Source: Acidobacteriaceae bacterium (lineage in GTDB: Bacteria > Acidobacteriota > Terriglobia > Bryobacterales > Bryobacteraceae). Taken from it: a DNA stretch of 32,692 bases. The stretch covers positions 1 through 32,692 of the forward strand of contig JAFASD010000434.1 of assembly GCA_019244945.1 (NCBI GenBank). Direction: 5' to 3'. The notes under the pieces are model-generated. The model had not been told where the DNA came from. It saw only the letters and a list, made by a program, of their open reading frames with translations, and did no database searches. This document shows, piece by piece, positions 1-18,825 of the stretch. Numbering within the stretch: position 1 is the stretch's first letter; the number at the start of each line of letters is the position of its first letter. Position numbers and translations under genes: made by a program.

Positions 1-788
1 TCGCGATTGGAACGCCTGAAGGCGTCATAAACGTTTCGATTTCTACGCCGGGTGCAAAGCACAAAGAGAACCCGTGCGCCGTACCCGATAGTGTGCAGGC
101 CGATGTTGTTGATGGAGTTGGCGTGGTCAAGATCCCGCTTTTTCCAGGGAAATTGGGCATCGATTTTGCTCGTGAACTGTCCAGTACTTTCGACCGATTC
201 AACGGCGTGGATCGCCTGGTGGTCGATCTAAGAGGTAATCCGGGTGGTGGAATCGGCGGCTTGCGCCTAATGAGTCTTATGGTGCCCGGCAAAGCACCAG
301 TAGGTTTCAGTATCGATCGCGCAACCGCGGAGCGCGGCTTTGATAAAACCGACCTTCCCCGTTTTGGAAGACTTCCGGCTTCAAAATTTGAGATACCCTT
401 GCTCGCTCTGCGCTTTGCACGAAAGAAATCCGTGGTGCTCGTCACTGAAGGCCTCGGACCTCGACAGTTTCACGGCCATATTGTGGTGCTCGTAAATGAG
501 CACACTGCGTGTGCATCTGAAATGGTTGCGCTATTTGCACGCGAAGAGGCAGGTGCAAAGATCGTTGGGATGACGACGCCTGGCAAACTCGTGTCTCATA
601 CCGGATTCAACGTTGGTCACGGTTTCACGCTCGCATTGCCCGTGGCCGCATACAGCAGTTGGAAGGGAACGCGTTTGGACGGAGATGGCATCGTGCCTGA
701 TTTTACTGTCGATTGGTCGTACTCGGATGCGCGAAAGGGCGTCGACAAACAACTCTCATCGGCGGTTAGCGTCTGCAAATCTGAGTGA
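1..788 (+). CDS. S41 family (C-terminal processing / tail-specific) peptidase, 5'-truncated by window edge
   Basis: Frame 3 is open from nt 3 with no stop, so the ORF-track start at 93 is internal. Motifs DLRGNPGGG and NEHTACASEMVA...TTPGK fit the S41 Ser/Lys-dyad catalytic domain. Confidence 0.75.
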   Translation, partial: AIGTPEGVINVSISTPGAKHKENPCAVPDSVQADVVDGVGVVKIPLFPGKLGIDFARELSSTFDRFNGVDRLVVDLRGNPGGGIGGLRLMSLMVPGKAPVGFSIDRATAERGFDKTDLPRFGRLPASKFEIPLLALRFARKKSVVLVTEGLGPRQFHGHIVVLVNEHTACASEMVALFAREEAGAKIVGMTTPGKLVSHTGFNVGHGFTLALPVAAYSSWKGTRLDGDGIVPDFTVDWSYSDARKGVDKQLSSAVSVCKSE

Positions 789-1069: not shown

Positions 1070-2932
1070 TTACAACTGTAGGCCGATTTTAAGTACAACT
1101 TTCTTACTCGCTTCAAGCCATTCTGAGTTCAATTCCAGCAGTAGTTCTATTTCAGCTGTGCCCGGATTTCCCTCGACGTCTCTGACCTGAACCATCGTTC
1201 TTGCGAGCGGGAGCGTTGACGAATAGGGGAATTGAAGGTTGCGTCGACCTTTGCCTGGATGATCAACATATTGCTCAATCCATGCAGCAACCTCGTGCTG
1301 CAACTCGATGCTCGAACGTCCTTTGTTCTGCCACTGCATCCCTTCGATGCTATGGGCAATCTGACATGCCACTAATAGATGTTCCAATTCGCGTGATGTC
1401 AATGCTTCGGGAGAGCACACGCGCTGTTGATCTGAACTCTTCGGTGATTCGATTTCGTATAACGTTGGAATTTTCCAAAATACAGCCGCTCCGGTCCCGC
1501 GATCATATTCGAGTACTGCAAATCCTTGTTTAGAAAGCGCCGCGCCTGCAGAACGGGATAGCAGACCTTCGATGGGAGGCACCGTTTTGAAAAAAGCATT
1601 TTCCGCAATCGGAGAATGAGGCTGGAGCCCCGGAACTCTACCGTTCCTTAAGCCATGCATTTCTAAGCACCAGCCACGTTGCGCATAAGCCGTGATCATG
1701 CACGTACCGATTGCGTACGCAGCGTTTGACCACAAATAGTCCGACACTTTGGCTAGAGTCTCGGTATGCTTCCAGTTTGTGCGCGGGGACGTGTGATCCA
1801 AATAGGGATTGCGGAGTCTAATGCGCGGCAACGTCAATATGCAATATGAAGACTCTCGCGCTTTTCGAAACTCACGCCAGCCATACGACGAATCGTATGC
1901 GCATCTGTCGTCCCAATAGGTAGGGTCTTGCGAGAGTTCGGCAAACGATTTAGCTCCGAATGCATTGGGACCGATTGCGGAAATGATCGGTGCGTGTGCT
2001 ATCGCGGCAGCCGCACAGAGTCGTTCGAGCAGAAATGCATCTGGGTCGTTGACGTGGGGAGTGAATTCGTAGTCGGCGATCATCGCCAGACAAGGTCTAG
2101 CACGGGTGGGCCTATCTCTCTGAACGCGTTCCGCAGAATGGAACAGTAGTAATTTGCTCGACAGCTCCGATGATCGTTCAACTTCTCGAATCGTACTCAA
2201 CAGATCGTGCTTCGTTGCATGAATGACCTCAATTGCAACCAGCGGCTCGAAGTGTTCTTTAGTCGCTCGCTGTAGGTCCGACATAATCCAGTGCATTTCG
2301 TCGCGATTTACAGTGCGTTCGCCGTTCGCGTTTTCTCTTGGGTCGATATAACGATTTTCTGAATACTCCAGCAAGTATTCGAGACCGCGCCAGCTCGCCT
2401 CTAAAGACTGAAATTCTGGATGATGTAGAATCTCGTTAACTTGAGTTGACAAGATTCCTGGTATTTCAGGTTTGCTGCCGTGAGGTTCGTCCAGGAGGTT
2501 TCGCAATGCCGGCAGACATTCGACAATGTGGCTGGGACCAAAGTCGTCCATACATTCGAACCAGAGTTCCGCCTGCAGAACTTCCGCTGAACTCATCTCT
2601 TGTGATCGCCGGCACATGTGATTCAGAACGGCGATCTGAATACCAGGAGTCCCCACATAGTCAAAAACGGTCTTCGATTGTTGTCCCCGCGCTTTTTCCA
2701 GATCCTTTCTCGTCTTCGGCAAAGTCAGTTTCGTGAGAGGATGCGATTTCGCCTCGTTGCTCACGCGCCCTCTTCCAGGATCTGTTAAAGCACGAACAGG
2801 ATTAAGAGGGTTGTTCCCCGCGAAGTCTCCGATAACCAAAACTCTGACCGGAAGATCCGGCAAAAAGACACGCTCTACTCGCGTTTTGCGGGGTCGCCAG
2901 TGTTCTCCAGAGGGAGATTTTTTCGTTCGCAT
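1070..2932 (-). CDS. Fused TssB-like / TssC-like contractile sheath protein (single polypeptide, 620 aa)
   Basis: The N-terminal ~155 aa carry TssB motifs: LPVRVLVIGDFAG versus LPLNILVLGDFKG, and FECMDDFGPSHIVECLPAL versus IERMIDFGPDAIVSKLAPF of the tssB at 9667. From aa ~165 the protein is collinear with the TssC at 10208: EILHHPEFQSLEASWRGLEYLL, AMIADYEF, AHAPIISA, LTLPRIRLRNPY, YLWSNAAYA. One uninterrupted ORF with an ATG start. Confidence 0.8.
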   Translation of the reverse strand: MRTKKSPSGEHWRPRKTRVERVFLPDLPVRVLVIGDFAGNNPLNPVRALTDPGRGRVSNEAKSHPLTKLTLPKTRKDLEKARGQQSKTVFDYVGTPGIQIAVLNHMCRRSQEMSSAEVLQAELWFECMDDFGPSHIVECLPALRNLLDEPHGSKPEIPGILSTQVNEILHHPEFQSLEASWRGLEYLLEYSENRYIDPRENANGERTVNRDEMHWIMSDLQRATKEHFEPLVAIEVIHATKHDLLSTIREVERSSELSSKLLLFHSAERVQRDRPTRARPCLAMIADYEFTPHVNDPDAFLLERLCAAAAIAHAPIISAIGPNAFGAKSFAELSQDPTYWDDRCAYDSSYGWREFRKARESSYCILTLPRIRLRNPYLDHTSPRTNWKHTETLAKVSDYLWSNAAYAIGTCMITAYAQRGWCLEMHGLRNGRVPGLQPHSPIAENAFFKTVPPIEGLLSRSAGAALSKQGFAVLEYDRGTGAAVFWKIPTLYEIESPKSSDQQRVCSPEALTSRELEHLLVACQIAHSIEGMQWQNKGRSSIELQHEVAAWIEQYVDHPGKGRRNLQFPYSSTLPLARTMVQVRDVEGNPGTAEIELLLELNSEWLEASKKVVLKIGLQL

Positions 2933-3052: not shown

Positions 3053-4309
3053 TCACTTACGGAAATCCTGCTCGGTAAGTCCAGGAACTGCGGCAATCTT
3101 CGCGAAACGCATCTGAATGGCACGCTGGCTAGAATCTGGTTTAAGCTGCATGATGGTCGGATATTGGCTTCGCCCGAAGGGTTTGTATTGTGAATATAAG
3201 ATTTCACGGGTAGGCCCGACCTTGAGAGTGCACCTTACCGTTGTCGGTAGCGATTGATCGTTCAGTGTGACGTAGTAGACCGCTAAATCATTTTTCGCTT
3301 GGATCGTGGTAGGTGTTGCCGTTCCAGGATCTGCGAGTAGCTCAACGTTATTCCCACCCAAAATATCCAGGACATTCGGCAGCTGAAAGTCCCGAAAAAG
3401 ACGCACAAAGTCTTGAAGTGATGGTTCTACCCACGCCACCGCCGGTTTGAGCTTTGCTTTGGATCGGGTTGAAGCGTCAATAACAGAGATCGTTTCGTGG
3501 CCAGCACCGTTGATATCCATCAAAGCCATACCAGGAATTTTCCAATTCGCCTTGATGCTCCAGGCCGTGCTCTTTCCGTCTTCCGACCATATTGTTGCTT
3601 CGCCGGAGGCAGTGCCAGAACTCAGGTCCGACATCCCCTCTTTCCCGCCCAGAGCTTGGATTAGCGACGCTAATCGTTGCTTCCCGAATAGATGTCGGGT
3701 CTCCAGCGTGGGTGTCAGAACAAAGCGATCAACCGTCTTTTCCTTATCGGCTTCAAGTAATACCCGAGAAGTTGCAACCTCGTAATTCGGGTTGTGTTTT
3801 GCTATTTGAATTTGGATGGTACCCGGTTGCAGTCCCGAGACAGTCAGTTTCCCGTCAGTGGTCTTGTAATTCGTGGTTTTACCTTTTTCATCTGTTAGCG
3901 AAACCTCGCATTCAGCCGGCACACAAGTGAGGTTAAGGGGGCCTGCGACTTTGATTTTCTTATTAGAGCTTTCGACCTGCTGAGGCCTGAGCGCGTCCAA
4001 AACGCTTGCGGGCGCACCAGCAGCTTTCAACTGATCGAATTCCGAGTCAGTAAGTGGCGCGGCAAGATTTCTTTTCTTGATGGCCAAAACAATGCGGTTC
4101 TCTGGTATTACTTTCCTTTCCACCCACTGCACTACTTCCTGGAACACTATGGGTGGCCCCTGAGTAATATCAGGCGGCCGCGTTCGCTGTCTGGCTCGGG
4201 GAGTTGTTTGACCGCCTCGGGCTTCGAGTGCTGCTTGCGTTGCCACTGGTCCAGACGACGCTACTTGAATCAGGCAAAAGCTCAAAGCGATAATTGCGAA
4301 GAATTTCAT
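3053..4309 (-). CDS. Secreted hypothetical protein (signal peptide; PEGA-like beta-sandwich segment)
   Basis: The ORF runs 3053..4366. The internal ATG at 4309 gives the signal peptide MKFFAIIALSFCLIQVASS and removes the overlap with the upstream gene (stop at 4332). NLTCVPAECEVSL...GLQPGTIQIQIAK resembles a PEGA-type domain. The C-terminal half is unassigned. Confidence 0.55.
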   Translation of the reverse strand: MKFFAIIALSFCLIQVASSGPVATQAALEARGGQTTPRARQRTRPPDITQGPPIVFQEVVQWVERKVIPENRIVLAIKKRNLAAPLTDSEFDQLKAAGAPASVLDALRPQQVESSNKKIKVAGPLNLTCVPAECEVSLTDEKGKTTNYKTTDGKLTVSGLQPGTIQIQIAKHNPNYEVATSRVLLEADKEKTVDRFVLTPTLETRHLFGKQRLASLIQALGGKEGMSDLSSGTASGEATIWSEDGKSTAWSIKANWKIPGMALMDINGAGHETISVIDASTRSKAKLKPAVAWVEPSLQDFVRLFRDFQLPNVLDILGGNNVELLADPGTATPTTIQAKNDLAVYYVTLNDQSLPTTVRCTLKVGPTREILYSQYKPFGRSQYPTIMQLKPDSSQRAIQMRFAKIAAVPGLTEQDFRK

Positions 4310-4331
4310 AGCCCCGTCACAGTGCACTTTC

Positions 4332-5438
4332 CTACGGCACCTCGGTTTCGGCCTTTTTGGCCTCAATCACCGTGTGTCTTAGCTGTCGAGCTTCGCGAAA
4401 ATCGGGATTTCGGCGTAAAAGAAAATCCAGTACGCGTCTTGCTTTGTCGTATTCACCCGCTCTGTACAGCTCTTCAGCTCTTTGCATGACTTCAGCCAAC
4501 GCGCTTTCAGACAGCGGCACCCGCGGCGCCGTAGTTCCTGTGGCTCCCGTGTTCGGAACTCTCGGTAGTAGCGTGGAGTTGTTAATCGATTGCTGTTGTG
4601 ATGATCCGCTAGCCTGGTTTGTCGGAACTTCAGTGGAGCCGGTCTTTGCTATCTGCGGTGCATTCTGTCCCGCATACGACCTGTACGTAGCGGCTTTATC
4701 TTTGTAAGGCTTCGCAGCTTCAGGTGACGTTTGCCTCTGGGCAAGGATTTCCTCCCATTTTGCTAGCGCCGTATAATACCGGGTTTGGAGATCCAGATCT
4801 CTTGGAGGTTGGAAATCTTCTAGTCTTGTGACGTAATTGCCAATCTCATCCATACCGTCTGATTCCGGAGGTGGTGAGTTCAATGCCCATTTCAGCTCTT
4901 GTGATGCGTCGAAGGTCAAGTATTCGCGCTGCATAAAGCCGATGGGAAACGCTCGACCGTCGCGCACAAGCTGCACCTTGATCCAGTGAGGCTCCGTTGC
5001 AGGTAGCTCAAGAACGTGAATCGATTCTCCGCGCTCTGCCTCGTAAAGCGATTTTGATATGAGTGAAGGAGCGACAAAAATTGAAACTCTCGCCGGTTTT
5101 ATCTTTGCTGTCGTTAAAGAGGGTGCCAGAACTGGACGCGATTGAAACATGTCCTTCACGCGACTGGCAACTCCCGTTTCGGCAAGCGCAATCAGAATTA
5201 CAGCGCCGACGAGCGCTGCGGCCGTAACTTTGAGCCAAGTCGGAAATGGCGGGAAAAATACCCGTTCCCAAGAACTGCGACGGAGTTGGTGTAACTTGCG
5301 TTTCTGCCTCGCTAATTCAGCTTCGGCGTGCCGCCACTGTGGTGAGCGTTTTACATCCTCGTCCTTGATAGCCCTTTGGAGTTCCTCTATATCCTTCGTG
5401 ATTTTCTGGATCTCTAATTGCCGGCGGTCAGGACTCAT
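4332..5438 (-). CDS. Single-pass membrane protein with SH3b-like and C-terminal TPR-like segments
   Basis: ATG 5438 overlaps the kinase stop by 11 nt (ATGAGTCCTGA). It has a charged N-terminal coiled-coil and one TM helix (WLKVTAAALVGAVILIALAETGV). An SH3b-like stretch follows (ARVSIFVAPS...GESIHVLEL...HWIKVQL...GFM), then an S/T/Q/P-rich linker and a TPR-like helix pair (AEELYRAGEYDKARRVLDFLLRRNPDFREA). Confidence 0.55.
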   Translation of the reverse strand: MSPDRRQLEIQKITKDIEELQRAIKDEDVKRSPQWRHAEAELARQKRKLHQLRRSSWERVFFPPFPTWLKVTAAALVGAVILIALAETGVASRVKDMFQSRPVLAPSLTTAKIKPARVSIFVAPSLISKSLYEAERGESIHVLELPATEPHWIKVQLVRDGRAFPIGFMQREYLTFDASQELKWALNSPPPESDGMDEIGNYVTRLEDFQPPRDLDLQTRYYTALAKWEEILAQRQTSPEAAKPYKDKAATYRSYAGQNAPQIAKTGSTEVPTNQASGSSQQQSINNSTLLPRVPNTGATGTTAPRVPLSESALAEVMQRAEELYRAGEYDKARRVLDFLLRRNPDFREARQLRHTVIEAKKAETEVP

Positions 5439-7881
5439 TGCTGCCCCGTTCCCTAGAATGTTCGCGAATGCGGGTTACCAACTGTTCTAGAAGTGCTCGT
5501 TTGACCTTTTTCTTCAATTGGAGCAAGCGCGGGTGATTGGGTGCAATGGCCAGCCCATCTGTAACGCGTTGCTCTGCCGATGGCAGTTGCCCTGCCTCTA
5601 TGTCGTTCTCGGCTAGGCTGTAGAGATTTTCTGCCCGAAGCCGACGAGCAAGCCGCCTTTCCGAGAATTCACTGCTGCAAAGCAGTTCGAGCGATTTCGA
5701 GTATTGGCCGGTTTCTCTGGCTGCCCATGCAGACGTCAACGCATTTTCGAAGGTCGGCTGAGAATTCAAACCAGCGCTTACAACTTCTGCCTTCTCCTGA
5801 AGATCGCTATCAGGATCAGATTCAAGGAGGATTCGCGCAAGCACGTCACTTGCAAGCCGATACTCCTCCATTGCTACATAGAGGTTCAATTGCCGGCGTC
5901 GACCCTCAAGCACGACCTGTCTAGCGGCTCGAGCGGGGCTATCCCTAACTCCCAGCACTATCTCCCCCAGATATGGGTGATCTTTCCAAAAGAACCGCAA
6001 AGCGCGCCAATCAGATAACGCTTCGGCAAGACTTGCCGGTCCCTGAGCTGTTTGTCCAGTTTGCCTTAGCGCGAGGAGCGCATCCAAAACCCCGCACACC
6101 GGATGATGGATGTGGACGGCCTTGAGGCTATCCAGTAATTCACGCGCTCTGTCCAGTTTTCCTTCAGCAAGCGTGTGCAGTACCGCGTTGGCCTCTTCTT
6201 CGAACATCCGATGTAAGCTACGAACGTGCTCGCTCTCCGCTCGTGCTAAGTCATCCCCGCCGCAAAAATCCGAATAGGCGTCATACCAAAGCGCGGACTC
6301 CTCATACCGGTGTTGATGACGCGCCGCTTCCGCTTCTTTCAATAGCTTGGTCGCATTATCAAGCTGAATGTTGTCTTCCTGCTCCCGGAGTTCTATGTAA
6401 TCCGATAAACGTAAGAGCTCCAGCGTGCCGCCATACCGCATCCCCTCTTCTATATGTTTCTTTGCGTCCGCGTAGGCGTGAGCGGCGATTTGAGTACTTG
6501 CCTTGGCGGCTTCTGCCATGGGCAATAGCTCACGATGGAACGCAAAGACGCTTGAATGACTAGGGGACCGCCGCATGACTTGATTTGTGATGTTATATGC
6601 ATTTGTGTAATCACCTTCCTTGGCAAGTTGCCGGGCGTATCGGCGCACTGCACCGTCAATTTCGCGACGCAAATCCGTAATCTTAGAAGACGTTTCTCCC
6701 TTGTTCTCGATGGATTCCAATTCTTTCGAAATAGACAGCACTCGGTTAAAATCGCTTTCACTTGTAGCGTGACAGAGTTCGCTGTATAGCTCGTCCACCT
6801 TCTCGTCCAACTGCTTCGCTTCATCCAGGAGTACCGTTAATTGGTCGGGAGTCGCAGGTATGGTGAGTTGGTCTGATCGTGCATTCTGAATGCTTTCCCA
6901 AGCTTTCATGAAATCCTCGGGACTGCGAGGACGATTTTCGGGATCTTTCGCCATCGCCCGATGCACAAGTCGTGCGAAAAGGAGCATCCGCGTTTTCTCT
7001 GGACTCTCCTTGGCATGCTCCAAGGTGTCAATGGGCAAGCAAGGTGGAGGAGGATAAAATTGGATAGCGGCGAGAGCATCTTCCAAGTCTTCTGTTCGAA
7101 CGGTCTTAGACAAGGGGTGCTCACCCATCAATGCTTCATAACAAATCACGCCCAGCGCGTAGATATCGCTCTTCGCCGTAGGGTTGCTAAGTGACTCTGG
7201 CGCCCAGTACAGGGGTGTCCCCGTTGCCATCTCGAGCTCAGGTTCGTTTACAGGCTTGCAGACTCCGAAATCCACCAATGTGACCGCATCGTGCTTCCCG
7301 ACCATGATATTGGCCGGCTTAAGATCCCTATGCAGAAAGCTATTTTCATGGGCGTGCTGAAGCGCCGAGCAAATCTGTTTAAGCATGAAGTACCAGCGAT
7401 CCAAGGGGATCTTGCCTTGCTGCTTGAACAGCGTCTCCAAGGTCTCTCCTTCGACGAATTTCATGACAAGAAACCCATATGCGTTTCCGTCGTTGGAGAA
7501 GGTTCCGAAGTCGTAGAGATCGGCGATATTGGGGTGAGTTAGCGTTGTTAGGGCGTGGAGCTCGTTTGCAAATGTCTGGTCAAGTGAGTTGACAGTTTTG
7601 ACTGCTACCTTTCGTTTCGGGCCGTTCCGCACTTCATAGCCGGAAAATACCTTTCCCATCGATCCGGCTCCAATTTGTTCGACAATTCTCCACTGCTGCT
7701 GTCCGAACAATACAGATGGGACCCGCTCTGTGGAATCCTCGCTTGAACCGAATTCGCTTGTGTTCCAATCGCTGCCGGTGATGGGCTCTTCTGCTGCGAA
7801 TGCCTTGGCTGACATGACTACATGCCTTGGCAACTCGGCCAGCCGCCTCAGGTATTCGGTCGGCTTTTCGTTCAGGAGCAT
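5428..7881 (-). CDS. Hanks-type Ser/Thr protein kinase with ~500-aa C-terminal helical-repeat region
   Basis: Kinase subdomains GAGSMGKV, VAVK, HRDLKPANI, DFG and TPLYWAPE are present. No TM helix is seen in the long helical C-terminal region. The ORF opens with TTG at 7902, but ATG 7881 has GAGG 7 nt upstream and is preferred. Confidence 0.85.
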   Translation of the reverse strand: MLLNEKPTEYLRRLAELPRHVVMSAKAFAAEEPITGSDWNTSEFGSSEDSTERVPSVLFGQQQWRIVEQIGAGSMGKVFSGYEVRNGPKRKVAVKTVNSLDQTFANELHALTTLTHPNIADLYDFGTFSNDGNAYGFLVMKFVEGETLETLFKQQGKIPLDRWYFMLKQICSALQHAHENSFLHRDLKPANIMVGKHDAVTLVDFGVCKPVNEPELEMATGTPLYWAPESLSNPTAKSDIYALGVICYEALMGEHPLSKTVRTEDLEDALAAIQFYPPPPCLPIDTLEHAKESPEKTRMLLFARLVHRAMAKDPENRPRSPEDFMKAWESIQNARSDQLTIPATPDQLTVLLDEAKQLDEKVDELYSELCHATSESDFNRVLSISKELESIENKGETSSKITDLRREIDGAVRRYARQLAKEGDYTNAYNITNQVMRRSPSHSSVFAFHRELLPMAEAAKASTQIAAHAYADAKKHIEEGMRYGGTLELLRLSDYIELREQEDNIQLDNATKLLKEAEAARHQHRYEESALWYDAYSDFCGGDDLARAESEHVRSLHRMFEEEANAVLHTLAEGKLDRARELLDSLKAVHIHHPVCGVLDALLALRQTGQTAQGPASLAEALSDWRALRFFWKDHPYLGEIVLGVRDSPARAARQVVLEGRRRQLNLYVAMEEYRLASDVLARILLESDPDSDLQEKAEVVSAGLNSQPTFENALTSAWAARETGQYSKSLELLCSSEFSERRLARRLRAENLYSLAENDIEAGQLPSAEQRVTDGLAIAPNHPRLLQLKKKVKRALLEQLVTRIREHSRERGSNES

Positions 7882-8220
7882 GCCACCGCCTCTGGGAGAC
7901 AAACATTATAATACCGGCGATACGACTAAGCGTGGAACTCTTTGCCTGCCAGCCGCGTCGCCTACGCACAGCTGTTAATAGTGCTCGCTAACAGAACGAA
8001 TCTCACGACGAGATGCGCGTGAGTGAAACGAGAGTCGTTGACAAACGCTGAGTACGTGCGGTTGTATCGTGTTCGCCCGACCCTTGAAAAAGTGCCCCAT
8101 TCGTAAGTTCGGTACTTGAGATGCCGTTGAGAACCCAATTCGCCTGCCTTATTCCGTACTCAGATGTGATATGATTATGCGCCCATAGGAGGTTTTCTGA
8201 CGGCGAGCGCCACAGCGATT

Positions 8221-9654
8221 ATGGATTGGGCGGCTTTGGGCGCTGCCGCCGTGAATGGGGAAATGCCGGCGGGCGTTCCGTGCAGCAGCGAAGCCTCGTA
8301 CCACACGCTGGAAAGGACTGTGGGTAGTCTCGGCGCCAGCCAAGAAGACTTGGAAGAAGCATTGCAAAGCGCGGCGTCACTCCTCGAATTGAGGGGTAAA
8401 GACTTTCGCGTCGCGATATACGCCACTAAGGCGCTTTTCAAGACGGAGGGGATCGAGGGGTTAGCGGACGGGCTTGCCTGCATTCATGCCATGGCGAAGA
8501 ACTTCTGGGAAGCCGCGCATCCGAAGCTGCAATACCGCGAATCGTGGTTCGGAAACCTCAGCGATTTTGTTCGATCAGTTCTCACGAATATCGATTCGCA
8601 GCAAACTGTGGCAATCGAACGCTGTGCCGATACTGCAAGCGATCTGGGCGAGTTCCTTGAGCACAAACTCGGAAAACAGCTCAACTTCAACACAATCGCC
8701 GTCGATCTCAGGAAGCTCATTCCGCGCAAGAAAGACACTGCACCGCCCGAACCTGCGCCCCCGAAATCTGCGGCTGAATCTCCGAAGGTCCTTCCCCTGA
8801 GTGCGCCCCCGGACGAGCTCAGCAAGCCGATCACAGCCATCCCCCTACCGCCCCCGGCCGGTGCGCCGACGGCACTCCAAGTCCGAAACGCTCTGCTGAA
8901 AGATGCCCATACCGCAAGGAAACACAACCGCGCAGAATTATGGCCCTACCGGGCAGTTCGCACTGCGGCCTGGCGGCAGATCACTAAACCCTTGACGTAC
9001 GATTCGCAACTCGCGAGTATTCCGCCCCCCTCGGAGTACCTGATTCGATCTCTCGCTGAACTCACGGGTTCGGCCTCGTGGGACGATCTCTGCGACAAAT
9101 CAGAGCAAGCGATCCCCGAGCACCCGCTGTTTTTGGATCTGCATATTCATTCGGCGAAAGCCCTGAGTGAGTTGGGCGGCGCTCACCAGCTCGCGGCGGA
9201 GTTCGTGCGCTCCGAGGCGCAGCTCTTTCTTGAAGAGTTTCCGTGGGTCGCAGAGTTGAAGTTCAATGACGGAACTCCTTTTCTCAGCGATTCCGCGCGC
9301 GCGTTCTTAACCGTGAAGGCCCAATCGGCCGAAGTACCGAGTACCCGGAGCACAATTTCGACTCGGCGGAAAAGGTTTGAAAACCTGATTGAACGGATCA
9401 GGGCGCTTGTGCAGGCGAACCATCCAGAGTTAGCACTGGCCGCTCTGGGCGCTCTCGATTCCGAGATAACGCGCTTTTCCCTGGAGGAATGGGATTCCGA
9501 AATCTGCGTAGAAGTATTTGAACTTTGGCTGAACGTGCTCGATCCCTTGCGCGGCTCGGACACACGGAAAAGCGAACTTTTCAACTCTGTCTTTGCCCGG
9601 CTGATCTCCATTGACCCCGGGAGAAAGATCGGGTTGGGCGAAATACAGGTTTGA
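8221..9654 (+). CDS. tssA: T6SS TssA/VasJ-family protein (ImpA N-terminal-like domain)
   Basis: First gene of the plus-strand T6SS operon, directly upstream of tssBC. It has an ImpA_N-like N-terminus, a Pro/Ala-rich linker (PPEPAPPKSAAESPK...PPPAGAP) and a helical C-terminal domain, as in VasJ/TssA-type proteins. Confidence 0.7.
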   Translation: MDWAALGAAAVNGEMPAGVPCSSEASYHTLERTVGSLGASQEDLEEALQSAASLLELRGKDFRVAIYATKALFKTEGIEGLADGLACIHAMAKNFWEAAHPKLQYRESWFGNLSDFVRSVLTNIDSQQTVAIERCADTASDLGEFLEHKLGKQLNFNTIAVDLRKLIPRKKDTAPPEPAPPKSAAESPKVLPLSAPPDELSKPITAIPLPPPAGAPTALQVRNALLKDAHTARKHNRAELWPYRAVRTAAWRQITKPLTYDSQLASIPPPSEYLIRSLAELTGSASWDDLCDKSEQAIPEHPLFLDLHIHSAKALSELGGAHQLAAEFVRSEAQLFLEEFPWVAELKFNDGTPFLSDSARAFLTVKAQSAEVPSTRSTISTRRKRFENLIERIRALVQANHPELALAALGALDSEITRFSLEEWDSEICVEVFELWLNVLDPLRGSDTRKSELFNSVFARLISIDPGRKIGLGEIQV

Positions 9655-9666
9655 TAAAGGAGAAAC

Positions 9667-10200
9667 ATGCCAGAAGACGATGACTTAGTCGCACCGATTC
9701 AGCGAATCAATATCACTGTGGAAGCCCATACCAAAGGCCAGCCCGAGGGCGAGCTACCACTGAATATTTTAGTGCTTGGAGACTTTAAGGGAAGACCTGA
9801 TGAGCTTCCTTTGTACCTCCCAACACAGGCCGTACATTCCCGGTCCGAGATTCCCGGCGCACGAGACGTACGAGGTACCAGGTCGATTACCAAGGACACT
9901 GATTTCGAAAGGGTACTGCGCGAGATGCATGTGACTATCGACTTGGACATTGGCGACACGGCATACGAATACAAAATTGAACGAATGATCGATTTTGGTC
10001 CGGATGCGATTGTTTCCAAACTCGCCCCGTTTGCGAAATTAGTCGAAATACGCCAAGCGTTGGAATCATTACTGACGCCTTTGAAAAACCCGCACGGGGT
10101 TCGAAAACTGCTCGAAGATGCGGTGCGGGACGAGTCTAAGCGCGAAGCGCTGGTTACTGCGATGGGAATTGAAAACGCCGAGGCGAGCGAAGGCAATTGA
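9667..10200 (+). CDS. tssB: T6SS small sheath subunit TssB (VipA)
   Basis: Motifs IQRINITVE, ELPLNILVLGDFKG and MIDFGPDAIV; 177 aa. AAGGAG lies 4 nt upstream of the ATG. Sits immediately 5' of tssC. Confidence 0.9.
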   Translation: MPEDDDLVAPIQRINITVEAHTKGQPEGELPLNILVLGDFKGRPDELPLYLPTQAVHSRSEIPGARDVRGTRSITKDTDFERVLREMHVTIDLDIGDTAYEYKIERMIDFGPDAIVSKLAPFAKLVEIRQALESLLTPLKNPHGVRKLLEDAVRDESKREALVTAMGIENAEASEGN

Positions 10201-10207
10201 GGGCACA

Positions 10208-11770
10208 ATGTCGCACATTTTCGAAAAGGTGAGCAACACCCAGGTCGCTGACCAAGAAAACCCGATAAAAGCTCCAGTAGTGGCTGAGTTACTGGATACC
10301 GCCGTCCAACAATTCCAAGAACAAGCGGGCACGACGGAGTTATACACCGAAGGAACGGGCAAAGATAAGAAAGAAAAACGAATTCCGATCCGTGAAGCGT
10401 TCCTTTGCATTCTTGCGGAAGTTCTGCGGAACGGGAACGAAACCAAACCGATTAATGAAATCGTGGTGAAGGAGCTGATCAAAGAGCTTGACATCTTCAT
10501 GAGCGCCGAGCTGGACAAAATTCTTCACGATGCTCGTTTTAAAAGGCTTGAGGCGGCATGGACGCAACTCAAATATCTAGTCGACCATGCGGATTTCCGA
10601 AGGAATATAGAGATCAACGTGTTGAACATCTCGAAAGATGAGTTGCGCGAGGACTTGGAGAACCAGGCACCGCGCTCCTCATTCTTGTACAGGGTCGCTT
10701 ACCAATTCGATTACGGCCAATTTGGCGGCCACCCGTACGGCGCGATGATCGCCAATTATGACTTCGGACCGAATTCGCCTGACATGTCGCTATTAAGAAA
10801 CATCTCACGGATTGCAAATTGGGCGCATGCGCCGTTCATCGCGGCTGCGTCACCGGAGTTTTTCGGTGTGCGTGAGTTCCGCGACCTCTCATATCTCACC
10901 GATCTGGATCAGATCGTCGAAGGTCGCAAGCCTCAGAACACCGAGTGGCTTGAGTTTCGAAAAACGAAGGAGGCGCGATGTGTCGGATTGACATTGCCGC
11001 GCTTTCTGCTGCGCTTACCCTACGGTAATCAAAAGCCAACTAAGACATTCGGGTATACCGAGAGCGTGACCAATCATGACGCTTATCTTTGGGGTAATGC
11101 GGCGTTCGCGTTTGCCACGCGCCTAACTGAAAGCTTTGCCAGGAACCGCTGGTGCGCGAACATCATTGGTCCTCGCGGGGGCGGAGCTGTCAAGAATCTT
11201 CCATTGCATATCTTCCCCACGCTTGGAGGCAGCATGGGGGCTAAAATTCCGACGGAGATCATGATCCCGGACGAGCGTGAAGGGGAACTGGCGAGAGCCG
11301 GATTTATACCGCTTGCGATCAGGAAAGAAACCAATGAAGCCGCGTTTTTCTCAGCTAATTCATGCCAGGTTCCTGCTTGGTTTGGGGACGGCGACGAGCA
11401 AATGATCGACCAAGCCAATTTTAAGCTCAATACCATGCTGCCCTATACATTCATGATTAGTCGCGTAGCGCACTATATCAAGGCCATGCAGACAGAAAGA
11501 CTGGGGCTGAACTACAGCGCGACCCAGATGCAAAAAGAATTAGAGAAGTGGCTTCAGCAATATGTCGCAAATTTCGACGCGCAGCCGGAAGTTAGGGCGC
11601 GCCGGCCGTTCAGAGAGTTAGAGATCGTAGTCCTCCCCAAACCCGGCGACCCGGGCTGGTTCAGAGTACAAATATTACTGCGGCCGGACTTCAAATATCA
11701 AGGTGCGGATTTCAAATTGTCGCTCGTCAGCGAAATGGCTGAAAGGGCGCAGAAACAGCAGAACCAATAA
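10208..11770 (+). CDS. tssC: T6SS large sheath subunit TssC (VipB)
   Basis: Motifs ILHDARFKRLEAAWTQLKYLV, GAMIANYDF, AHAPFIAAASPEFFG, LTLPRFLLRLPYG and YLWGNAAFAFA. The ORF opens at 10118, but ATG 10208 follows GAGGG (4-nt spacer) and the tssB stop at 10200. Confidence 0.92.
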   Translation: MSHIFEKVSNTQVADQENPIKAPVVAELLDTAVQQFQEQAGTTELYTEGTGKDKKEKRIPIREAFLCILAEVLRNGNETKPINEIVVKELIKELDIFMSAELDKILHDARFKRLEAAWTQLKYLVDHADFRRNIEINVLNISKDELREDLENQAPRSSFLYRVAYQFDYGQFGGHPYGAMIANYDFGPNSPDMSLLRNISRIANWAHAPFIAAASPEFFGVREFRDLSYLTDLDQIVEGRKPQNTEWLEFRKTKEARCVGLTLPRFLLRLPYGNQKPTKTFGYTESVTNHDAYLWGNAAFAFATRLTESFARNRWCANIIGPRGGGAVKNLPLHIFPTLGGSMGAKIPTEIMIPDEREGELARAGFIPLAIRKETNEAAFFSANSCQVPAWFGDGDEQMIDQANFKLNTMLPYTFMISRVAHYIKAMQTERLGLNYSATQMQKELEKWLQQYVANFDAQPEVRARRPFRELEIVVLPKPGDPGWFRVQILLRPDFKYQGADFKLSLVSEMAERAQKQQNQ

Positions 11771-11784
11771 AGGAGAACTAAGAT

Positions 11785-12252
11785 ATGGCAGACGAAGCAA
11801 ACATGACGGTACCGGGAATTCAGGGCTCCTGCGATATTCAGGGGAGAGAGGGAACGATTCGCGTGCAGTACGTTGAACACAATGTCTCGAGGCCGTACGA
11901 CATTGATACAGGGCAGCCAACCGGCAGACGTGTACATTCACCGTTTGTGATCCGGAAAGAGGTGGACAAGGCCTCCCCACTTCTGTACCGCGACCTTGCT
12001 GAAGGCAAAAAGTACGATTCCGTGGAGCTCAAATGGTATCGCACGGCGAAAGACGGAAACCAGGAGCACTATTTCACAACGAAGCTCACGGATGCCCTGC
12101 TTGTTTCGATAAAGGCGTTAAAGAAGGATACGCAGGATCTATCATCGAAATCGTACAAGGACATGGAGGACGTGTCCTTTGTTTATAGGAGGATTGACTG
12201 GAAAGAAGAAACGAATGGCGTTGAGGCGTACGACGATTGGCGGAAAGCCTGA
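11785..12252 (+). CDS. hcp: T6SS tube protein Hcp
   Basis: 155 aa with the Hcp1-family signature GRRVHSPFVIRKEVDKASPLLY. AAGGAG lies upstream. Positioned between tssC and tssE. Confidence 0.9.
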   Translation: MADEANMTVPGIQGSCDIQGREGTIRVQYVEHNVSRPYDIDTGQPTGRRVHSPFVIRKEVDKASPLLYRDLAEGKKYDSVELKWYRTAKDGNQEHYFTTKLTDALLVSIKALKKDTQDLSSKSYKDMEDVSFVYRRIDWKEETNGVEAYDDWRKA

Positions 12253-12271
12253 TTGAGGTTGCTAGGACGCG

Positions 12272-12664
12272 GTGTCTGCGATTCGGTTGATCGAGCGGCT
12301 GCGGGGAGTAGCCAAAGGACGACTTTCGGTACAAAACTCAATCGAAAGCTACCTTCTGAATATATTGAACACGGTTGAAGGCGCGGTGCTTGCCAATCCG
12401 GCATATGGTCGGGCCGATTTTACGGACTTCCCATTCTCGAGTGAGCTGGCGCGCACTCTCGAGCGGCGTATCCCCGCGCTGGATCGTCGAGTTGAGAAAG
12501 TTCGTGTGCGCGTGCTGGAAGCGGAGATGCGCTTACCTGGGGAGCTTGCGTTTCTCGTGGAGTGGTGGCCAGCGAATTCCGCGGAGACCAATCGGTTCAT
12601 CGCGAAGCGAACGGACGACGGTCAGTTTCACATTCCCGATGTTCTGAACCGCGCATCGATATGA
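12272..12664 (+). CDS. tssE: T6SS baseplate wedge protein TssE (gp25-like)
   Basis: 130 aa with SIESYLLNILNTVEGAVLANPAYG, matching the gp25/TssE N-terminal motif. GTG start. The stop overlaps the tssF ATG (ATGA). Confidence 0.8.
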   Translation: MSAIRLIERLRGVAKGRLSVQNSIESYLLNILNTVEGAVLANPAYGRADFTDFPFSSELARTLERRIPALDRRVEKVRVRVLEAEMRLPGELAFLVEWWPANSAETNRFIAKRTDDGQFHIPDVLNRASI

Positions 12665-14436: not shown

Positions 14437-14442
14437 TCGCCA

Positions 14443-15495
14443 ATGTCGCCCGACACGGTTCGCAGAACGTCGTTTTTCTCGCTGGTGGAAGCCATCGAAC
14501 GGTTTTGCCAGCCGCAGGCGACCGTCGGACAGCTCGGCCCTCCCCAATACGAAGTCCTGCGCTTCCGCGTTGATCCCTCCTTCGCCTTTCCCGTATGCGA
14601 TGTGTTGTCGCTGGAGCCTCCACAGGACGGAGAAGCCCAGTGGCCCTATTACACCGTCACAACAACATTTCTGAGTCTCCTGGGCAGCGGCTCGCCGCTC
14701 CCCGATCTCTACACCCAAGAGATCGTTCACGATCCCGAGCGCGGCGAAGCTAAGCGCGCGTTTTTTGATCTCTTTCACCACCGTCTGATATCGCTTTTTT
14801 ATCGCGTCTGGCGCAAGTACCGGTATGCTTTCACGTTTCGGGAGGACTGCAAAGACCCTTATTCGCTTCGCTTTCTCCTATTAACAGGTGCCGATCCCGA
14901 AAGTATTTTCGGGCAAACTGCCGTTGATGCAACCGTGTTTCTTCGGTACCTTCCGGTGTTCTATCGCAAGCCACGGTCTGCGTCGGCACTGGCGCCTCTG
15001 CTCCGGGACTTTCTGGGAGGGATTAACGTCGCGGTCGTCCAATTCATTCCCCGGAAAGTTCAGTTCGAAAGCTGGCAGCACAGCGCGATTGGCGCGCAAA
15101 ACAACTGTGTCGGTCGAAACATGCTCATCGGTGCGAAAGCGACAAGTCTCAACGCGGGATTTCGCGTATTAATCGGGCCGCTCACGTATGAGAGATACGT
15201 TGGGTATCTGCCAGAAGAACAGGGAATGCGACAAGTTGTGCAGCTCACAACATGGTTTACGACTGACCGGCTCGACTTCGATCTCGAGTTCCAGGTCGAA
15301 TATCAAAGTGTCCCACTCTTTTGGCTGGGACAAGCTTCAGCCGAGCATCATTACGCTCGGTTGTATAAGCTCAAGTGTTCCTTACTCGGCCGGACGACTT
15401 GGCTGCGGAATCCGGAAAGGCCACCGCATACCGGCCAGATCTCTTCCATAATTATGCCGACTTCGCCGACGTCTTCCACAACGATGGCGGCGTAA
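14443..15495 (+). CDS. tssG: T6SS baseplate protein TssG (ImpH)
   Basis: 350 aa with the N-terminal motif SFFSLVEAIERF. Size and position directly after tssF are typical of TssG. Confidence 0.85.
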   Translation: MSPDTVRRTSFFSLVEAIERFCQPQATVGQLGPPQYEVLRFRVDPSFAFPVCDVLSLEPPQDGEAQWPYYTVTTTFLSLLGSGSPLPDLYTQEIVHDPERGEAKRAFFDLFHHRLISLFYRVWRKYRYAFTFREDCKDPYSLRFLLLTGADPESIFGQTAVDATVFLRYLPVFYRKPRSASALAPLLRDFLGGINVAVVQFIPRKVQFESWQHSAIGAQNNCVGRNMLIGAKATSLNAGFRVLIGPLTYERYVGYLPEEQGMRQVVQLTTWFTTDRLDFDLEFQVEYQSVPLFWLGQASAEHHYARLYKLKCSLLGRTTWLRNPERPPHTGQISSIIMPTSPTSSTTMAA

Positions 15496-15510
15496 GGGAA
15501 GGTCCTCACT

Positions 15511-17238: not shown

Positions 17239-17296
17239 AGGTCTCGCAGCAAGTCGATCTAAGCATAAGGGCTAGGGCTCACAGGCTTTAATCAAT

Positions 17297-17764: not shown

Positions 17765-17786
17765 CAGAAAAGAGCTGTTTGAGCAC

Positions 17787-18803: not shown

Positions 18804-18825
18804 CAACGATCGAAAGGAGGATAGC

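What the first reader, a model, noticed from the sequence alone, without database searches (positions are those of the whole stretch)
1070..2932. Single-chain TssB-TssC sheath paralogue missing the segments that build the ClpV-recognised sheath domain
- **Fusion in one ORF:** a TssB-like N-terminus and a TssC-like body sit in one 620-aa ORF.
- **TssB-like part:** aa 27-39 LPVRVLVIGDFAG and aa 125-143 FECMDDFGPSHIVECLPAL.
- **TssC-like part:** EILHHPEFQSLEASWRGLEYLL, AMIADYEF, AHAPIISA, LTLPRIRLRNPY and YLWSNAAYA. All of these align in order with the canonical split pair at 9667-11770.
- **Missing segment:** the DFGP motif and the ILHH motif are 34 aa apart in the fusion. In the split pair they are ~166 aa apart (62-aa TssB tail plus 104-aa TssC head).
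- **Why it matters:** in solved VipA/VipB-type sheaths, the TssB C-terminus and TssC N-terminus form the surface domain that the ClpV unfoldase grips.
- **Inference:** the fusion would be a minimal sheath protomer that cannot be recycled by that route. It could act as an alternative sheath, a cap/terminator subunit or a regulator. I do not know of a described fused, domain-deleted T6SS sheath gene linked to a kinase.
Basis: partly seen in the sequence, partly recalled or inferred. Interest (0 to 1): 0.85.

Follow-up and report, generated by a model that had tools for sequence, protein, structure and literature searches.

The report
Kinase-linked single-chain T6SS sheath lacking recycling domain
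Next to an ordinary type VI secretion gene cluster sits a rare, fast-evolving gene whose two sheath proteins are fused into one chain without the surface domain used for recycling; it sits in a protein-kinase signalling operon and probably acts as a regulated accessory, not as the main sheath.

Summary
ORF 1070-2932 lies on the minus strand and encodes 620 aa. A TssB/VipA-like N-terminus (aa 26-148) runs directly into a TssC/VipB-like body (aa 156-620). The DFGP and ILHH motifs are 34 aa apart, against about 166 aa in the split pair at 9667-11770. An AlphaFold model (pTM 0.84) matches solved VipB/TssC chains. Only two short helices remain where the recycling domain (domain 3) should be.

An independent ortholog has the same contiguous fusion, and the N-terminus is under purifying selection, so this is not an assembly artefact. 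Only this one ortholog exists among about 15 billion proteins.

The gene is not unique in kind. Full-length TssB-TssC fusions act as the sheath in cultured genomes. Domain-3-less single-chain forms recur in metagenomes: as orphan genes, fused to Ser/Thr kinases, or fused to TPR or TIR domains. I found no paper describing either type.

The window copy is degraded relative to both. It keeps 70% of conserved TssC positions, has a shortened N-terminal arm, and has lost basic residues on one conserved helix. Its operon (kinase, membrane protein, periplasmic protein) resembles T6SS phosphorylation-pathway regulators.

Best reading: a kinase-coupled accessory or regulatory sheath-like subunit. The function remains inferred.

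The parts
1070..2932 (-). Single-chain TssB-TssC-like ORF, 620 aa, ATG start; stop codon at 1070-1072
   Evidence: ORF and translation. Pfam VipA, VipB and VipB_2 hits. The ortholog P0002 shares the long N-terminus. dN/dS is 0.35.
2489..2857 (-). TssB/VipA-like region, aa 26-148: beta-2 strand LPVRVLVIGDFAG through the DFGP motif and the following short helices
   Evidence: My TssB HMM gives E = 4.5e-10 for aa 26-148. Pfam VipA matches aa 116-148. The AF2 model places strands at 29-35, 97-103 and 118-124 with pLDDT 85-93.
2729..2806 (-). Lineage-specific insertion 1, aa 43-68, Thr-rich. Its end begins the conserved motif LTK[LF]TLPKTR[KR]DLE (aa 66-79), which runs past the insertion. Low model confidence. 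Candidate phospho-acceptor loop (inference only).
   Evidence: Absent from all 16 other sheath proteins aligned. Conserved between the window protein and P0002. pLDDT about 52-57.
2426..2512 (-). Junction, aa 141-169: two short helices plus an 8-aa loop that replace the whole recycling domain (domain 3)
   Evidence: Secondary structure of the model. Alignment against full-length fusions shows a gap of about 90-130 residues here. Spacing is 36 against 120-160.
1073..2467 (-). TssC/VipB-like body, aa 156-620 (sheath domains 2 and 1)
   Evidence: Pfam VipB and VipB_2. phmmer against PDB VipB gives E = 2e-44. Foldseek target-normalised TM-scores are 0.73-0.80 to 3j9g, 5myu, 5urw, 5n8n and 9n4v.
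2237..2356 (-). Lineage-specific insertion 2, aa 193-232, between the ILHH helix and the first domain-2 strand. It lies within the 82-aa stretch (aa 168-249) that the ortholog P0002 has deleted.
   Evidence: The model predicts a helix at 210-225 with pLDDT 51-63.
1328..1387 (-). Helix aa 516-535 (LEHLLVACQIAHSIEGMQWQ), the counterpart of the conserved TssC 'SRFAHYLKVxxR' helix. Three near-invariant basic residues are replaced (R to Q, K to E, R to W).
   Evidence: Conserved-column test (HMM positions 398, 404, 408). Its role as the Hcp 'attachment helix' is my inference from the pyocin and Myxococcus models (bioRxiv 10.1101/108233) and was not verified residue by residue.
3053..4312 (-). Upstream operon gene: secreted or periplasmic protein (419 aa from M19, N-terminal signal-like hydrophobic segment), no Pfam family
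   Evidence: There are only two homologs. One (P0407, 32% identity) lies directly after a transmembrane PpkA-like kinase and a PP2C phosphatase in another T6SS cluster.
4332..5438 (-). Upstream operon gene: single-pass (bitopic) membrane protein with one TM helix (aa about 67-90) and a C-terminal TPR
   Evidence: The L001 ortholog is 66% identical by tblastn. The architecture is collinear with the periplasmic part of the L014 kinase, but the similarity is not significant (E = 0.44).
5428..7902 (-). First operon gene: Hanks-type Ser/Thr kinase with a helical C-terminal domain of about 490 aa. VAVK, HRDLKPAN, DFG and APE motifs are all present.
   Evidence: Pfam Pkinase 157 bits. Sequence. The L001 ortholog keeps only the C-terminal domain at 79% identity.
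9667..11770 (+). Canonical split sheath pair: tssB 9667-10200 and tssC 10208-11770, followed by hcp. These are the comparators and the likely bulk sheath.
   Evidence: Pfam and NCBIfam hits. TssC scores 518.7 bits against a cutoff of 271.5.

Best explanation
The gene encodes a divergent single-chain TssB-TssC sheath-fold protein. It has lost the T6SS-specific recycling domain and works with the Ser/Thr-kinase signalling operon it belongs to, as an accessory or regulatory subunit of the adjacent T6SS rather than as the bulk sheath.

**Proposed mechanism (steps marked shown or inferred)**
1. Shown: the protein keeps sheath domains 1 and 2 and a C-terminal strand.
2. Shown: it lacks domain 3, has an N-terminal arm about 12 aa shorter than other sheath proteins, and has lost three conserved basic residues on the helix 'SRFAHYLKVxxR'.
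3. Inferred: it can dock onto sheath, baseplate or TssA surfaces that recognise the sheath core. It binds the Hcp tube poorly and cannot propagate the handshake. It therefore acts in sub-stoichiometric amounts, as a cap, a brake or a kinase-docking adaptor.
4. Inferred: the kinase receives an envelope signal through the single-pass membrane protein (TPR368) and the periplasmic protein (unk437). It then phosphorylates or recruits the sheath-like protein, possibly on the conserved Thr-rich insertion, to gate sheath assembly or firing.
For: **Sheath fold without domain 3:**

**Not the bulk sheath**
- A canonical tssB-tssC-hcp set lies 7 kb away.
- Only 26% identity to the local TssC.
- It keeps 70% of 82 highly conserved TssC columns, against 95% for canonical proteins and 87% for other short fusions.
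- Short N-terminal arm. VipA linker length is functionally critical, and altered subunits co-assemble and act as dominant negatives (PMC5797969).

**Still functional:** dN/dS is 0.35, against 0.16-0.28 for its neighbours.

**Kinase coupling**
- The operon order kinase (C-terminal domain only in L001) / membrane TPR protein / secreted protein / fusion is conserved in the only other genome that carries it. In both genomes it abuts T6SS genes, but on different sides: tssA in one and tssM in the other.
- Kinase plus domain-3-less TssBC occur as one polypeptide in three separate clusters, including cultured Roseisolibacter agri WP_284349991.1.

**The operon is T6SS-regulatory**
- The only distant homolog of the secreted protein sits directly after a transmembrane kinase and a PP2C phosphatase, in a cluster with ClpV, VgrG and a DUF4280 (PAAR-like) protein.
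Against: - There is no experimental evidence of any kind.
- No FHA protein or PP2C phosphatase lies in the window, so a classical threonine-phosphorylation pathway is not complete here.
- The L001 ortholog operon lacks the kinase catalytic domain, and its fusion has deleted 82 aa of the domain-2 core. This fits decay at least as well as regulation.
- Other domain-3-less TssBC genes are orphans far from any T6SS gene. The class may therefore have a T6SS-independent role.
- Adjacency to the T6SS rests on only two related genomes.
- The identity of the 'attachment helix', and the idea that the short arm blocks polymerisation, are my inferences.
Confidence: 0.4

Rival explanations
1. T6SS-independent kinase-coupled sensor or conflict module. 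The domain-3-less sheath fold has been co-opted as a binding or sensor domain, for example for tube-like or sheath-like assemblies from phage tails or incoming T6SS attacks. Its output goes through kinase, TIR or TPR partners. On this reading, the position next to the T6SS is historical.
For: - Short TssBC genes occur as orphans among housekeeping genes (P0328, P0350, P0169).
- One is fused to a C-terminal TIR domain and lies beside parAB, an HsdM methylase, a transposase and Fic.
- Two kinase fusions carry a TM helix between the kinase and the TssBC part. This is a receptor-kinase topology that would place the sheath-like part outside the cytoplasm.
- One is fused to TPR repeats.
- The window operon is flanked on its other side by S41 peptidase and CHAT-TPR genes.
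Against: - The window protein and its ortholog both abut T6SS genes.
- The secreted partner's only distant homolog lies inside a T6SS cluster.
- PADLOC has no model that matches the fusion.
- The window protein has lost the residues that most short-class members keep, so it may not share their activity.
- The phylogenetic link to the short class is unresolved.
Confidence: 0.2
2. A degenerating paralogue: a relic of a duplicated or acquired fused sheath gene, drifting under relaxed selection with little or no current function.
For: - It has the highest dN (0.307 against 0.078-0.165) and the highest dN/dS (0.35) among the seven gene segments compared.
- It has lost 30% of conserved positions; its ortholog has lost 51% and carries an 82-aa core deletion.
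- The family has only two members among about 15 billion proteins.
- It sits on a very long branch.
Against: - dN/dS is well below 1 across all segments, including the N-terminal 167 aa at 0.20.
- The reading frame is intact over 620 and 536 codons in two lineages that have diverged to dS of about 0.9.
- Lineage-specific insertions contain conserved motifs.
- The AF2 core model is confident.
Confidence: 0.2
3. An alternative, non-recyclable structural sheath that polymerises around Hcp in place of TssB/TssC. It would resemble an R-pyocin-type two-domain sheath and give single-shot firing without ClpV.
For: - Single-chain sheaths exist and are the only sheath gene within the 10 kb viewed on each side in the T6SS cluster of Chitinimonas koreensis.
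- Pyocin sheaths lack domain 3 and still contract (PMC5807055).
- No clpV gene lies in the window.
Against: - A canonical tssBC pair with high profile scores lies in the same cluster.
- The fusion falls below the NCBIfam cutoffs (203.6 against 271.5, and 30.5 against 97.25).
- The N-terminal arm is shortened, and basic residues on the conserved helix are lost.
- The ortholog lacks domain-2 core elements.
- The gene lies in a kinase operon, not with hcp.
Confidence: 0.07

Closest known systems
Canonical T6SS sheath heterodimer TssB/VipA + TssC/VipB (PDB 3J9G, 5MXN, 5N8N, 5URW)
   Same: It has the same fold for domains 1 and 2 (Foldseek target-normalised TM 0.73-0.80). The Pfam VipA, VipB and VipB_2 signatures appear in the same order. 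A C-terminal strand is predicted.
   Different: It is one polypeptide. The recycling domain (TssB C-terminal helices plus the first 92-104 residues of TssC) is reduced to two short helices. The N-terminal arm is about 12 aa shorter. There are two insertions. Only 70% of conserved TssC positions are kept. It scores below both NCBIfam equivalog cutoffs.
Natural full-length TssB-TssC fusions (640-680 aa; Chitinimonas koreensis, C. arctica, Thalassomonas actiniarum, Pseudothauera nasutitermitis; annotated 'contractile sheath large subunit')
   Same: TssB and TssC are encoded in one ORF in the same order.
   Different: These fusions keep the full domain-3 segments (DFxP to NEILHH spacing 120-160). 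In C. koreensis the fusion stands where tssB/tssC normally stand, directly upstream of hcp, tssF, tssG and vgrG. The window gene is an extra copy in a kinase operon.
Domain-3-less single-chain TssBC class from metagenomes and a few genomes (e.g. P0169, P0328, P0350; kinase fusions P0347, P0230 and P0153 = Roseisolibacter agri WP_284349991.1; TIR fusion P0130). I found no description of it in the literature.
   Same: It shows the same junction: the TssB part ends about 15 aa after DFxP, and the TssC part starts about 10 aa before NEILHH. Spacing is 36, against 18-60 in the class. It shows the same association with Hanks kinases and TPR proteins.
   Different: The window protein is much more divergent. 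It keeps 70% of conserved columns against a class median of 87%, lacks the canonical RVxITY arm, and has two private insertions. Its placement in the tree is unresolved. It lies next to a T6SS cluster, whereas the class members whose loci I examined are orphans.
R-type pyocin and phage single-chain sheaths (two-domain core, no recycling domain)
   Same: It shares the topology: a single chain with domains 1 and 2 only, which is the ancestral sheath core (PMC5807055, PMC4632598).
   Different: There is no sequence membership. Phage and CIS sheaths match only at TM 0.25-0.31 (query-normalised), E about 1e-5 to 1e-3. The window protein derives from TssB/TssC by loss of domain 3, not from a phage sheath.
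T6SS threonine phosphorylation pathway (PpkA/PppA/Fha1/TagR-type post-translational control)
   Same: A Hanks kinase together with a membrane component and a periplasmic component is encoded beside a T6SS cluster. A homolog of the periplasmic protein follows a transmembrane kinase and a PP2C phosphatase in another T6SS cluster.
   Different: No FHA protein and no phosphatase lie in the window. The kinase has no TM segment of its own. The operon ends in a sheath-like protein, which is not a known component of that pathway.

Membership tests
TssC/VipB sheath large subunit | Pfam VipB (PF05943) and VipB_2 (PF18945) above the gathering score | tested here: met
   183.9 bits and 32.8 bits, each against a gathering score of 27
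TssC/VipB sheath large subunit | NCBIfam equivalog TIGR03355 above its curated cutoff | tested here: not met
   203.6 bits against a cutoff of 271.5. The local canonical TssC scores 518.7.
TssC/VipB sheath large subunit | N-terminal helices that form the recycling domain, including the ClpV-binding helix | tested here: not met
   The alignment starts at TssC residue about 93 and at index 54 of the VipB chain 5ojq_A. Full-length proteins have 90-130 more residues at this point.
TssC/VipB sheath large subunit | Three-dimensional fold of sheath domains 1 and 2 | tested here: met
   AF2 pTM 0.84. Foldseek target-normalised TM 0.73-0.80 and probability 1.00 to five solved T6SS sheaths.
TssB/VipA sheath small subunit | Pfam T6SS_VipA above the gathering score, or NCBIfam TIGR03358 above its cutoff | tested here: inconclusive
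   Pfam gives 26.5 bits against 24, covering only profile positions 83-115. TIGR03358 gives 30.5 against 97.25. My own TssB HMM covers positions 31-124 at E = 4.5e-10.
TssB/VipA sheath small subunit | N-terminal beta-1 'handshake' strand joined to beta-2 by a linker of canonical length | tested here: not met
   A 12-column gap relative to 15 of the 16 other aligned sheath proteins (P0203 has a shorter gap at the same place) lies between RVERVFL and LPVRVLVIGDF. The TssB HMM alignment starts only at position 31.
TssB/VipA sheath small subunit | C-terminal helices contributing to domain 3 | tested here: not met
   The TssB-like part ends about 15 aa after DFGP. Only helix 141-148 remains.
Functional T6SS sheath (any form) | Polymerises around the Hcp tube, contracts, and is disassembled by ClpV/ClpB | not testable with these tools
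   Only a monomer model was possible. No clpV gene lies in the window.
Domain-3-less single-chain TssBC class (undescribed) | One ORF with TssB then TssC, and a DFxP to NEILHH spacing of 60 aa or less | tested here: met
   Spacing is 36. The distribution over 207 fused proteins is bimodal, with peaks at 20-40 and at 110-150.
Domain-3-less single-chain TssBC class (undescribed) | Common descent with the other short fusions | tested here: inconclusive
   In the NJ tree the window protein and P0002 sit on a very long branch, about 1.4 substitutions per site from every group.
T6SS threonine phosphorylation pathway | Hanks kinase plus PP2C phosphatase plus FHA-domain target encoded with the T6SS | tested here: not met
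   A kinase is present. No PP2C or FHA family was found among the 27 window ORFs scanned with Pfam. The related L014 cluster has both a kinase and a PP2C.
Phage / R-pyocin / CIS sheath | Sequence or close structural membership | tested here: not met
   Only remote fold matches: query-normalised TM 0.25-0.31, 6-14% identity.

The most novel reading that the evidence does not exclude
Domain-3-less single-chain TssBC proteins form an unrecognised functional module. It is a sheath-core fold released from the recycling cycle and reused as a docking or sensor element. It is wired to Ser/Thr kinases, in some cases as the extracytoplasmic domain of a receptor kinase, and to TIR or TPR domains. In this window it would be the output or adaptor of an envelope-sensing kinase pathway that gates T6SS assembly. 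One possibility is a phospho-controlled, non-recyclable cap or brake subunit that co-assembles with TssBC.
Probability: 0.2. Interest if true: 0.85.

Novelty: new variant of a known kind. Interest (0 to 1): 0.7.

Why it matters
**For T6SS biology**
- Sheath biology assumes a two-protein protomer whose T6SS-specific third domain exists so that ClpV can recycle it.
- A natural single-chain, domain-3-less derivative recreates the ancestral two-domain sheath topology inside a T6SS lineage.
- Its repeated linkage to kinases, both by operon and by gene fusion, would make a direct connection between phospho-signalling and the sheath testable. Until now that signalling has been tied to Fha and TssL, with one report of sheath phosphorylation in Francisella (bioRxiv 10.1101/370957, title and abstract only).

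**More broadly**
- Orphan, TIR-fused and receptor-kinase-fused relatives suggest the sheath core has been co-opted outside secretion.

**For annotation**
- These proteins are all labelled 'ImpC' or 'contractile sheath large subunit'. Counts of T6SS loci based on TssC hits therefore include them.

Tried and rejected
- **GTDB genome scan for orthologs**. It returned only two Endozoicomonadaceae loci. These turned out to be ordinary adjacent tssB and tssC genes that tblastn had joined. They are not fusions.
- **Exhaustive HMMER search of 1.84 billion representatives**. No further family member was found beyond P0002.
- **NJ phylogeny of the TssC core**. It could not place the window protein because of its long branch. 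I draw no conclusion about a single or multiple origin of the short class.
- **PADLOC scan**. The fusion matches no defence-system model. The kinase hits generic PD-T4-6 and mad6 kinase models, which I regard as family-level kinase similarity only.
- **Attempt to see the rest of the contig, in search of clpV**. The look-up used the reverse-transcriptase ORF and failed because there was no exact product match.
- **AF2 model of the secreted neighbour**. It was too poor to use for a fold search (pLDDT 52.9, pTM 0.30).
- **Similarity between the membrane TPR protein and the periplasmic part of the L014 kinase**. The two are collinear, but the match is not significant (E = 0.44). I treat it as a hint only.
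- **Mapping VipB K223 and D333 onto the fusion.** I abandoned this because the PDB chain numbering could not be reconciled.
- **Promoter and terminator scan**. It gave no more sites than shuffled sequence.
- **Four literature searches for natural TssB-TssC fusions or sheath-like defence proteins**. They found nothing relevant.
Full report
**1. What is in the window**

The finding's coordinates hold one ORF on the minus strand (1070..2932, ATG start, 620 aa). It is the last gene of a four-gene minus-strand operon. In order, the operon encodes:
- a Hanks-type Ser/Thr kinase with a helical C-terminal domain of about 490 aa (5428-7902);
- a single-pass membrane protein with a C-terminal TPR (4332-5438);
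- a protein with an N-terminal signal-like segment and no Pfam family (3053-4312);
- the sheath-like ORF.

A canonical T6SS cluster is transcribed divergently from this operon. It contains tssA, tssB (9667-10200), tssC (10208-11770), hcp, tssE, tssF, tssG, vgrG, a DcrB-domain protein, a PAAR/prePAAR protein, a HEAT protein, tssK (on the minus strand), tssL and tssM. No clpV and no recognisable tssJ lie in the window. The window comes from NCBI MAG assembly GCA_019240515.1, contig JAFAYG010000154.1.

**2.

Profile evidence:
- Pfam finds T6SS_VipA (26.5 bits against a gathering score of 24; aa 116-148), VipB (183.9 bits) and VipB_2 (32.8 bits) in that order.
- A TssB HMM that I built from six TssB sequences aligns aa 26-148 to profile positions 31-124 (E = 4.5e-10).
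- Both NCBIfam equivalog models are hit but fall below their cutoffs: TssC 203.6 against 271.5, and TssB 30.5 against 97.25.

Comparison with the split pair:
- BLASTP against the local TssC gives 26% identity. Fusion aa 156-614 aligns to TssC aa 93-506.
- In a common HMM coordinate system the spacing is 36 for this protein and 120-160 for full-length TssB-TssC fusions.

The published definitions of domain 3, the recycling domain, match the missing segments:
- TssB1 D117-L133 with TssC1 E39-E54 and S66-M86 (PMC5807055);

**3. Structure**

- An AlphaFold2 model built on an 85-sequence alignment has pTM 0.84 and mean pLDDT 79.6.
- After the ELWFECM strand there are only short helices (128-131, 133-139, 141-148), an 8-residue loop, and helix 157-169 leading into the ILHH helix. 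Domain 3 is therefore reduced to a two-helix stub.
- Foldseek matches every solved T6SS sheath large subunit at probability 1.00. Target-normalised TM is 0.72-0.80 for 3j9g, 5myu, 5urw, 5urx, 5n8n, 5mxn, 9n4v and 3j9o.
- Phage, pyocin-like and CIS sheaths match only remotely.
I read domain absence from secondary structure and alignments, not from a superposition.

**4. It is a real gene, but a rare and fast-evolving one**

- Only one relative scores above ordinary TssC level, both in the 5.8-billion-cluster search and in the exhaustive search of 1.84 billion representatives. This is P0002 (57% identity, 608 bits; the next best hit scores 183 bits).
- P0002 comes from an independent Logan assembly (L001). 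Its operon has the same order and again abuts T6SS genes, but next to tssM rather than tssA.
- P0002 shares the long N-terminus (LPSLPVQLIVIGDFAGN). The ATG at 2932 is therefore the better start, not the GTG at codon 57 used by the public gene call.
- dN/dS is 0.35 for the fusion (0.20 for aa 1-167), against 0.16-0.28 for six neighbouring gene segments. dN is about twice that of the neighbours. This indicates purifying but relaxed selection.
- P0002 has deleted 82 aa, comprising the ILHH helix and the first domain-2 strand and helix. Its operon's first gene lacks the kinase catalytic domain.

**5. How degraded is it as a sheath subunit?**

- Of 82 TssC columns that are at least 85% conserved in 81 canonical or full-length proteins, the window protein keeps 70% and P0002 keeps 49%. 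The local TssC keeps 88% and the canonical median is 95%.
- The losses include three near-invariant basic residues of the 'SRFAHYLKVxxR' helix: R to Q, K to E and R to W. I suspect this is the Hcp 'attachment helix' by analogy with the pyocin and Myxococcus models. I did not verify this residue by residue.
- At the N-terminus, the linker between a possible beta-1 strand (RVERVFL) and beta-2 (LPVRVLVIGDF) is about 12 residues shorter than in 15 of the 16 other aligned sheath proteins; P0203 has a shorter gap at the same place.
- VipA linker length is critical. Inserting two or more residues abolishes contraction, and the altered subunits co-assemble with wild type and act as dominant negatives (PMC5797969).
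- There are two private insertions. The first, aa 43-68, is Thr-rich; the conserved motif LTK[LF]TLPKTR[KR]DLE (aa 66-79) begins at its end and runs past it. The second, aa 193-232, has low model confidence.

**6. It is not unique in kind**

Among 389 sheath-family proteins retrieved, 207 are single chains with TssB followed by TssC and a measurable spacing. Their DFxP to NEILHH spacing is bimodal, with peaks at 20-40 aa and at 110-150 aa.

The long mode includes proteins from cultured bacteria: Thalassomonas actiniarum, Chitinimonas koreensis, C. arctica and Pseudothauera nasutitermitis. In C. koreensis the 674-aa fusion stands directly upstream of hcp, tssF, tssG and vgrG, with no separate tssB or tssC within 10 kb on either side.

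The short mode contains 57 proteins by the 60-aa cutoff. These end the TssB part and start the TssC part at the same places as the window protein. They come almost entirely from metagenomes and are labelled only 'ImpC'. Their contexts are unexpected:
- P0328 (seen on 15 contigs), P0350 and P0169 are orphan genes among housekeeping genes, with no T6SS gene within 10 kb.
- P0347, P0230 and P0153 each carry an N-terminal Ser/Thr kinase and a short TssBC in one polypeptide.
- P0153 is WP_284349991.1 of cultured Roseisolibacter agri.
- P0347 and P0230 have a TM helix between the kinase and the sheath-like part, which is a receptor-kinase topology.
- P0347 lies next to an ECF sigma factor.
- P0181 has N-terminal TPR repeats.
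- P0130 has a C-terminal TIR domain and lies by parAB, HsdM, a transposase and Fic.
- A 1127-aa architecture with a short TssBC followed by a full TssBC recurs on many contigs.

Short-class members keep a median of 87% of conserved TssC columns. A crude NJ tree cannot place the window protein, which is about 1.4 substitutions per site from everything. Common descent with the short class is therefore unresolved.

**7. The operon looks like a T6SS post-translational control module**

- The secreted protein has only one homolog beyond its ortholog: P0407, at 32% identity.
- P0407 overlaps the stop codon of a 656-aa kinase that has a TM helix and a periplasmic part with a beta-rich segment and TPR. 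A PP2C phosphatase precedes that kinase.
- That cluster also contains ClpV, VgrG, an EndoU toxin and a DUF4280 (PAAR-like) protein.
- The window's membrane TPR protein is collinear with the periplasmic part of that kinase, but the similarity is not significant (E = 0.44).
- The window kinase has all the catalytic motifs.

Three lines of evidence point to a functional coupling between the kinase module and the sheath-like protein in a T6SS setting: the conserved operon, its adjacency to T6SS genes in two arrangements, and the kinase-TssBC gene fusions found elsewhere.

**8. Interpretation**

Most likely (confidence about 0.4), the protein is a kinase-coupled accessory or regulatory sheath-like subunit. 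Possible roles are a cap, a brake or an adaptor at a sheath end or the baseplate.

What is shown:
- its fold and its losses;
- the operon;
- the recurrent kinase link.

What is inferred:
- where it docks;
- that it is phosphorylated;
- that it gates assembly.

Rival readings:
- a T6SS-independent sensor or conflict module, as the orphan, TIR and receptor-kinase relatives suggest (0.2);
- a decaying paralogue (0.2);
- a true alternative non-recyclable sheath (0.07).

**9. Novelty**

Four full-text searches found no paper on natural TssB-TssC fusions, domain-3-less sheath proteins, or sheath-kinase or sheath-TIR fusions. The only 'fused TssB' hits are fluorescent-protein tags. The sequences themselves are in public databases under generic names. 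I therefore rate this a new variant of a known kind. The individual gene is a rare, divergent example. The broader class that it led to is the more interesting result.

Noticed in passing
L005-L010, L011, L012, L013 (loci fetched): A recurrent metagenomic class of domain-3-less single-chain TssB-TssC proteins. Members occur as orphan genes in housekeeping neighbourhoods, fused to Ser/Thr kinases (two with a TM helix between the kinase and the sheath-like part), fused to TPR repeats, or fused to a C-terminal TIR domain. All are annotated only as 'ImpC' or 'sheath large subunit'.
   Followed up: partly
L015:10001-12025 (Chitinimonas koreensis GCA_000428465.1): A full-length 674-aa TssB-TssC fusion is the first gene of a T6SS cluster (followed by hcp, tssF, tssG and vgrG), with no separate tssB or tssC in the 10 kb shown on either side. 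It lies downstream of a sigma-54 activator. Natural single-chain sheaths exist in cultured bacteria but seem not to be discussed in the literature.
   Followed up: partly
L001:4215-5690: In the only other genome carrying the operon, the first gene encodes just the helical C-terminal domain of the kinase (491 aa, 79% identical). The catalytic domain is absent. The conserved unit is therefore the helical domain plus the membrane protein, the secreted protein and the sheath-like protein.
   Followed up: partly
window 8221-25303: The T6SS core cluster in the window (tssA, B, C, hcp, E, F, G, vgrG ... K, L, M) has no clpV/tssH, no recognisable tssJ, and no FHA or PP2C gene. A conserved 256-aa protein with no Pfam family (25318-26088, minus strand) follows tssM in both genomes.
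   Followed up: partly
window 17297-19488: A DcrB-domain protein (17297-17764) lies between vgrG and a PAAR/prePAAR protein (17709-18803). A HEAT-repeat protein follows (18793-19488). This is probably an adaptor, effector and immunity set.
   Followed up: no
window 30199-32636: An ArdC-N/M78-like protein (30199-31038) is followed by a reverse transcriptase with an RVT_1 domain (31152-32636, minus strand). This suggests a mobile element or retroelement at the edge of the T6SS island.
   Followed up: no
window 93-788 and beyond the window start (L002:11977-16522): Convergent with the sheath-like gene are an S41 peptidase, an 863-aa CHAT-protease/TPR protein and a small HTH protein. This neighbourhood has a conflict-system flavour.
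   Followed up: no
P0132 / P0389 / P0394: A 1127-aa protein carries a short or truncated TssBC followed by a full TssB-TssC in one chain. It is seen on many JGI and Logan contigs (up to 231 kb). It is either a tandem sheath fusion or a consistent read-through gene call.
   Followed up: no
window 10118-10208: The mechanical ORF for tssC starts at 10118 and overlaps tssB. The gene call in the NCBI record starts at 10208 (520 aa), which is the start used here.
   Followed up: yes
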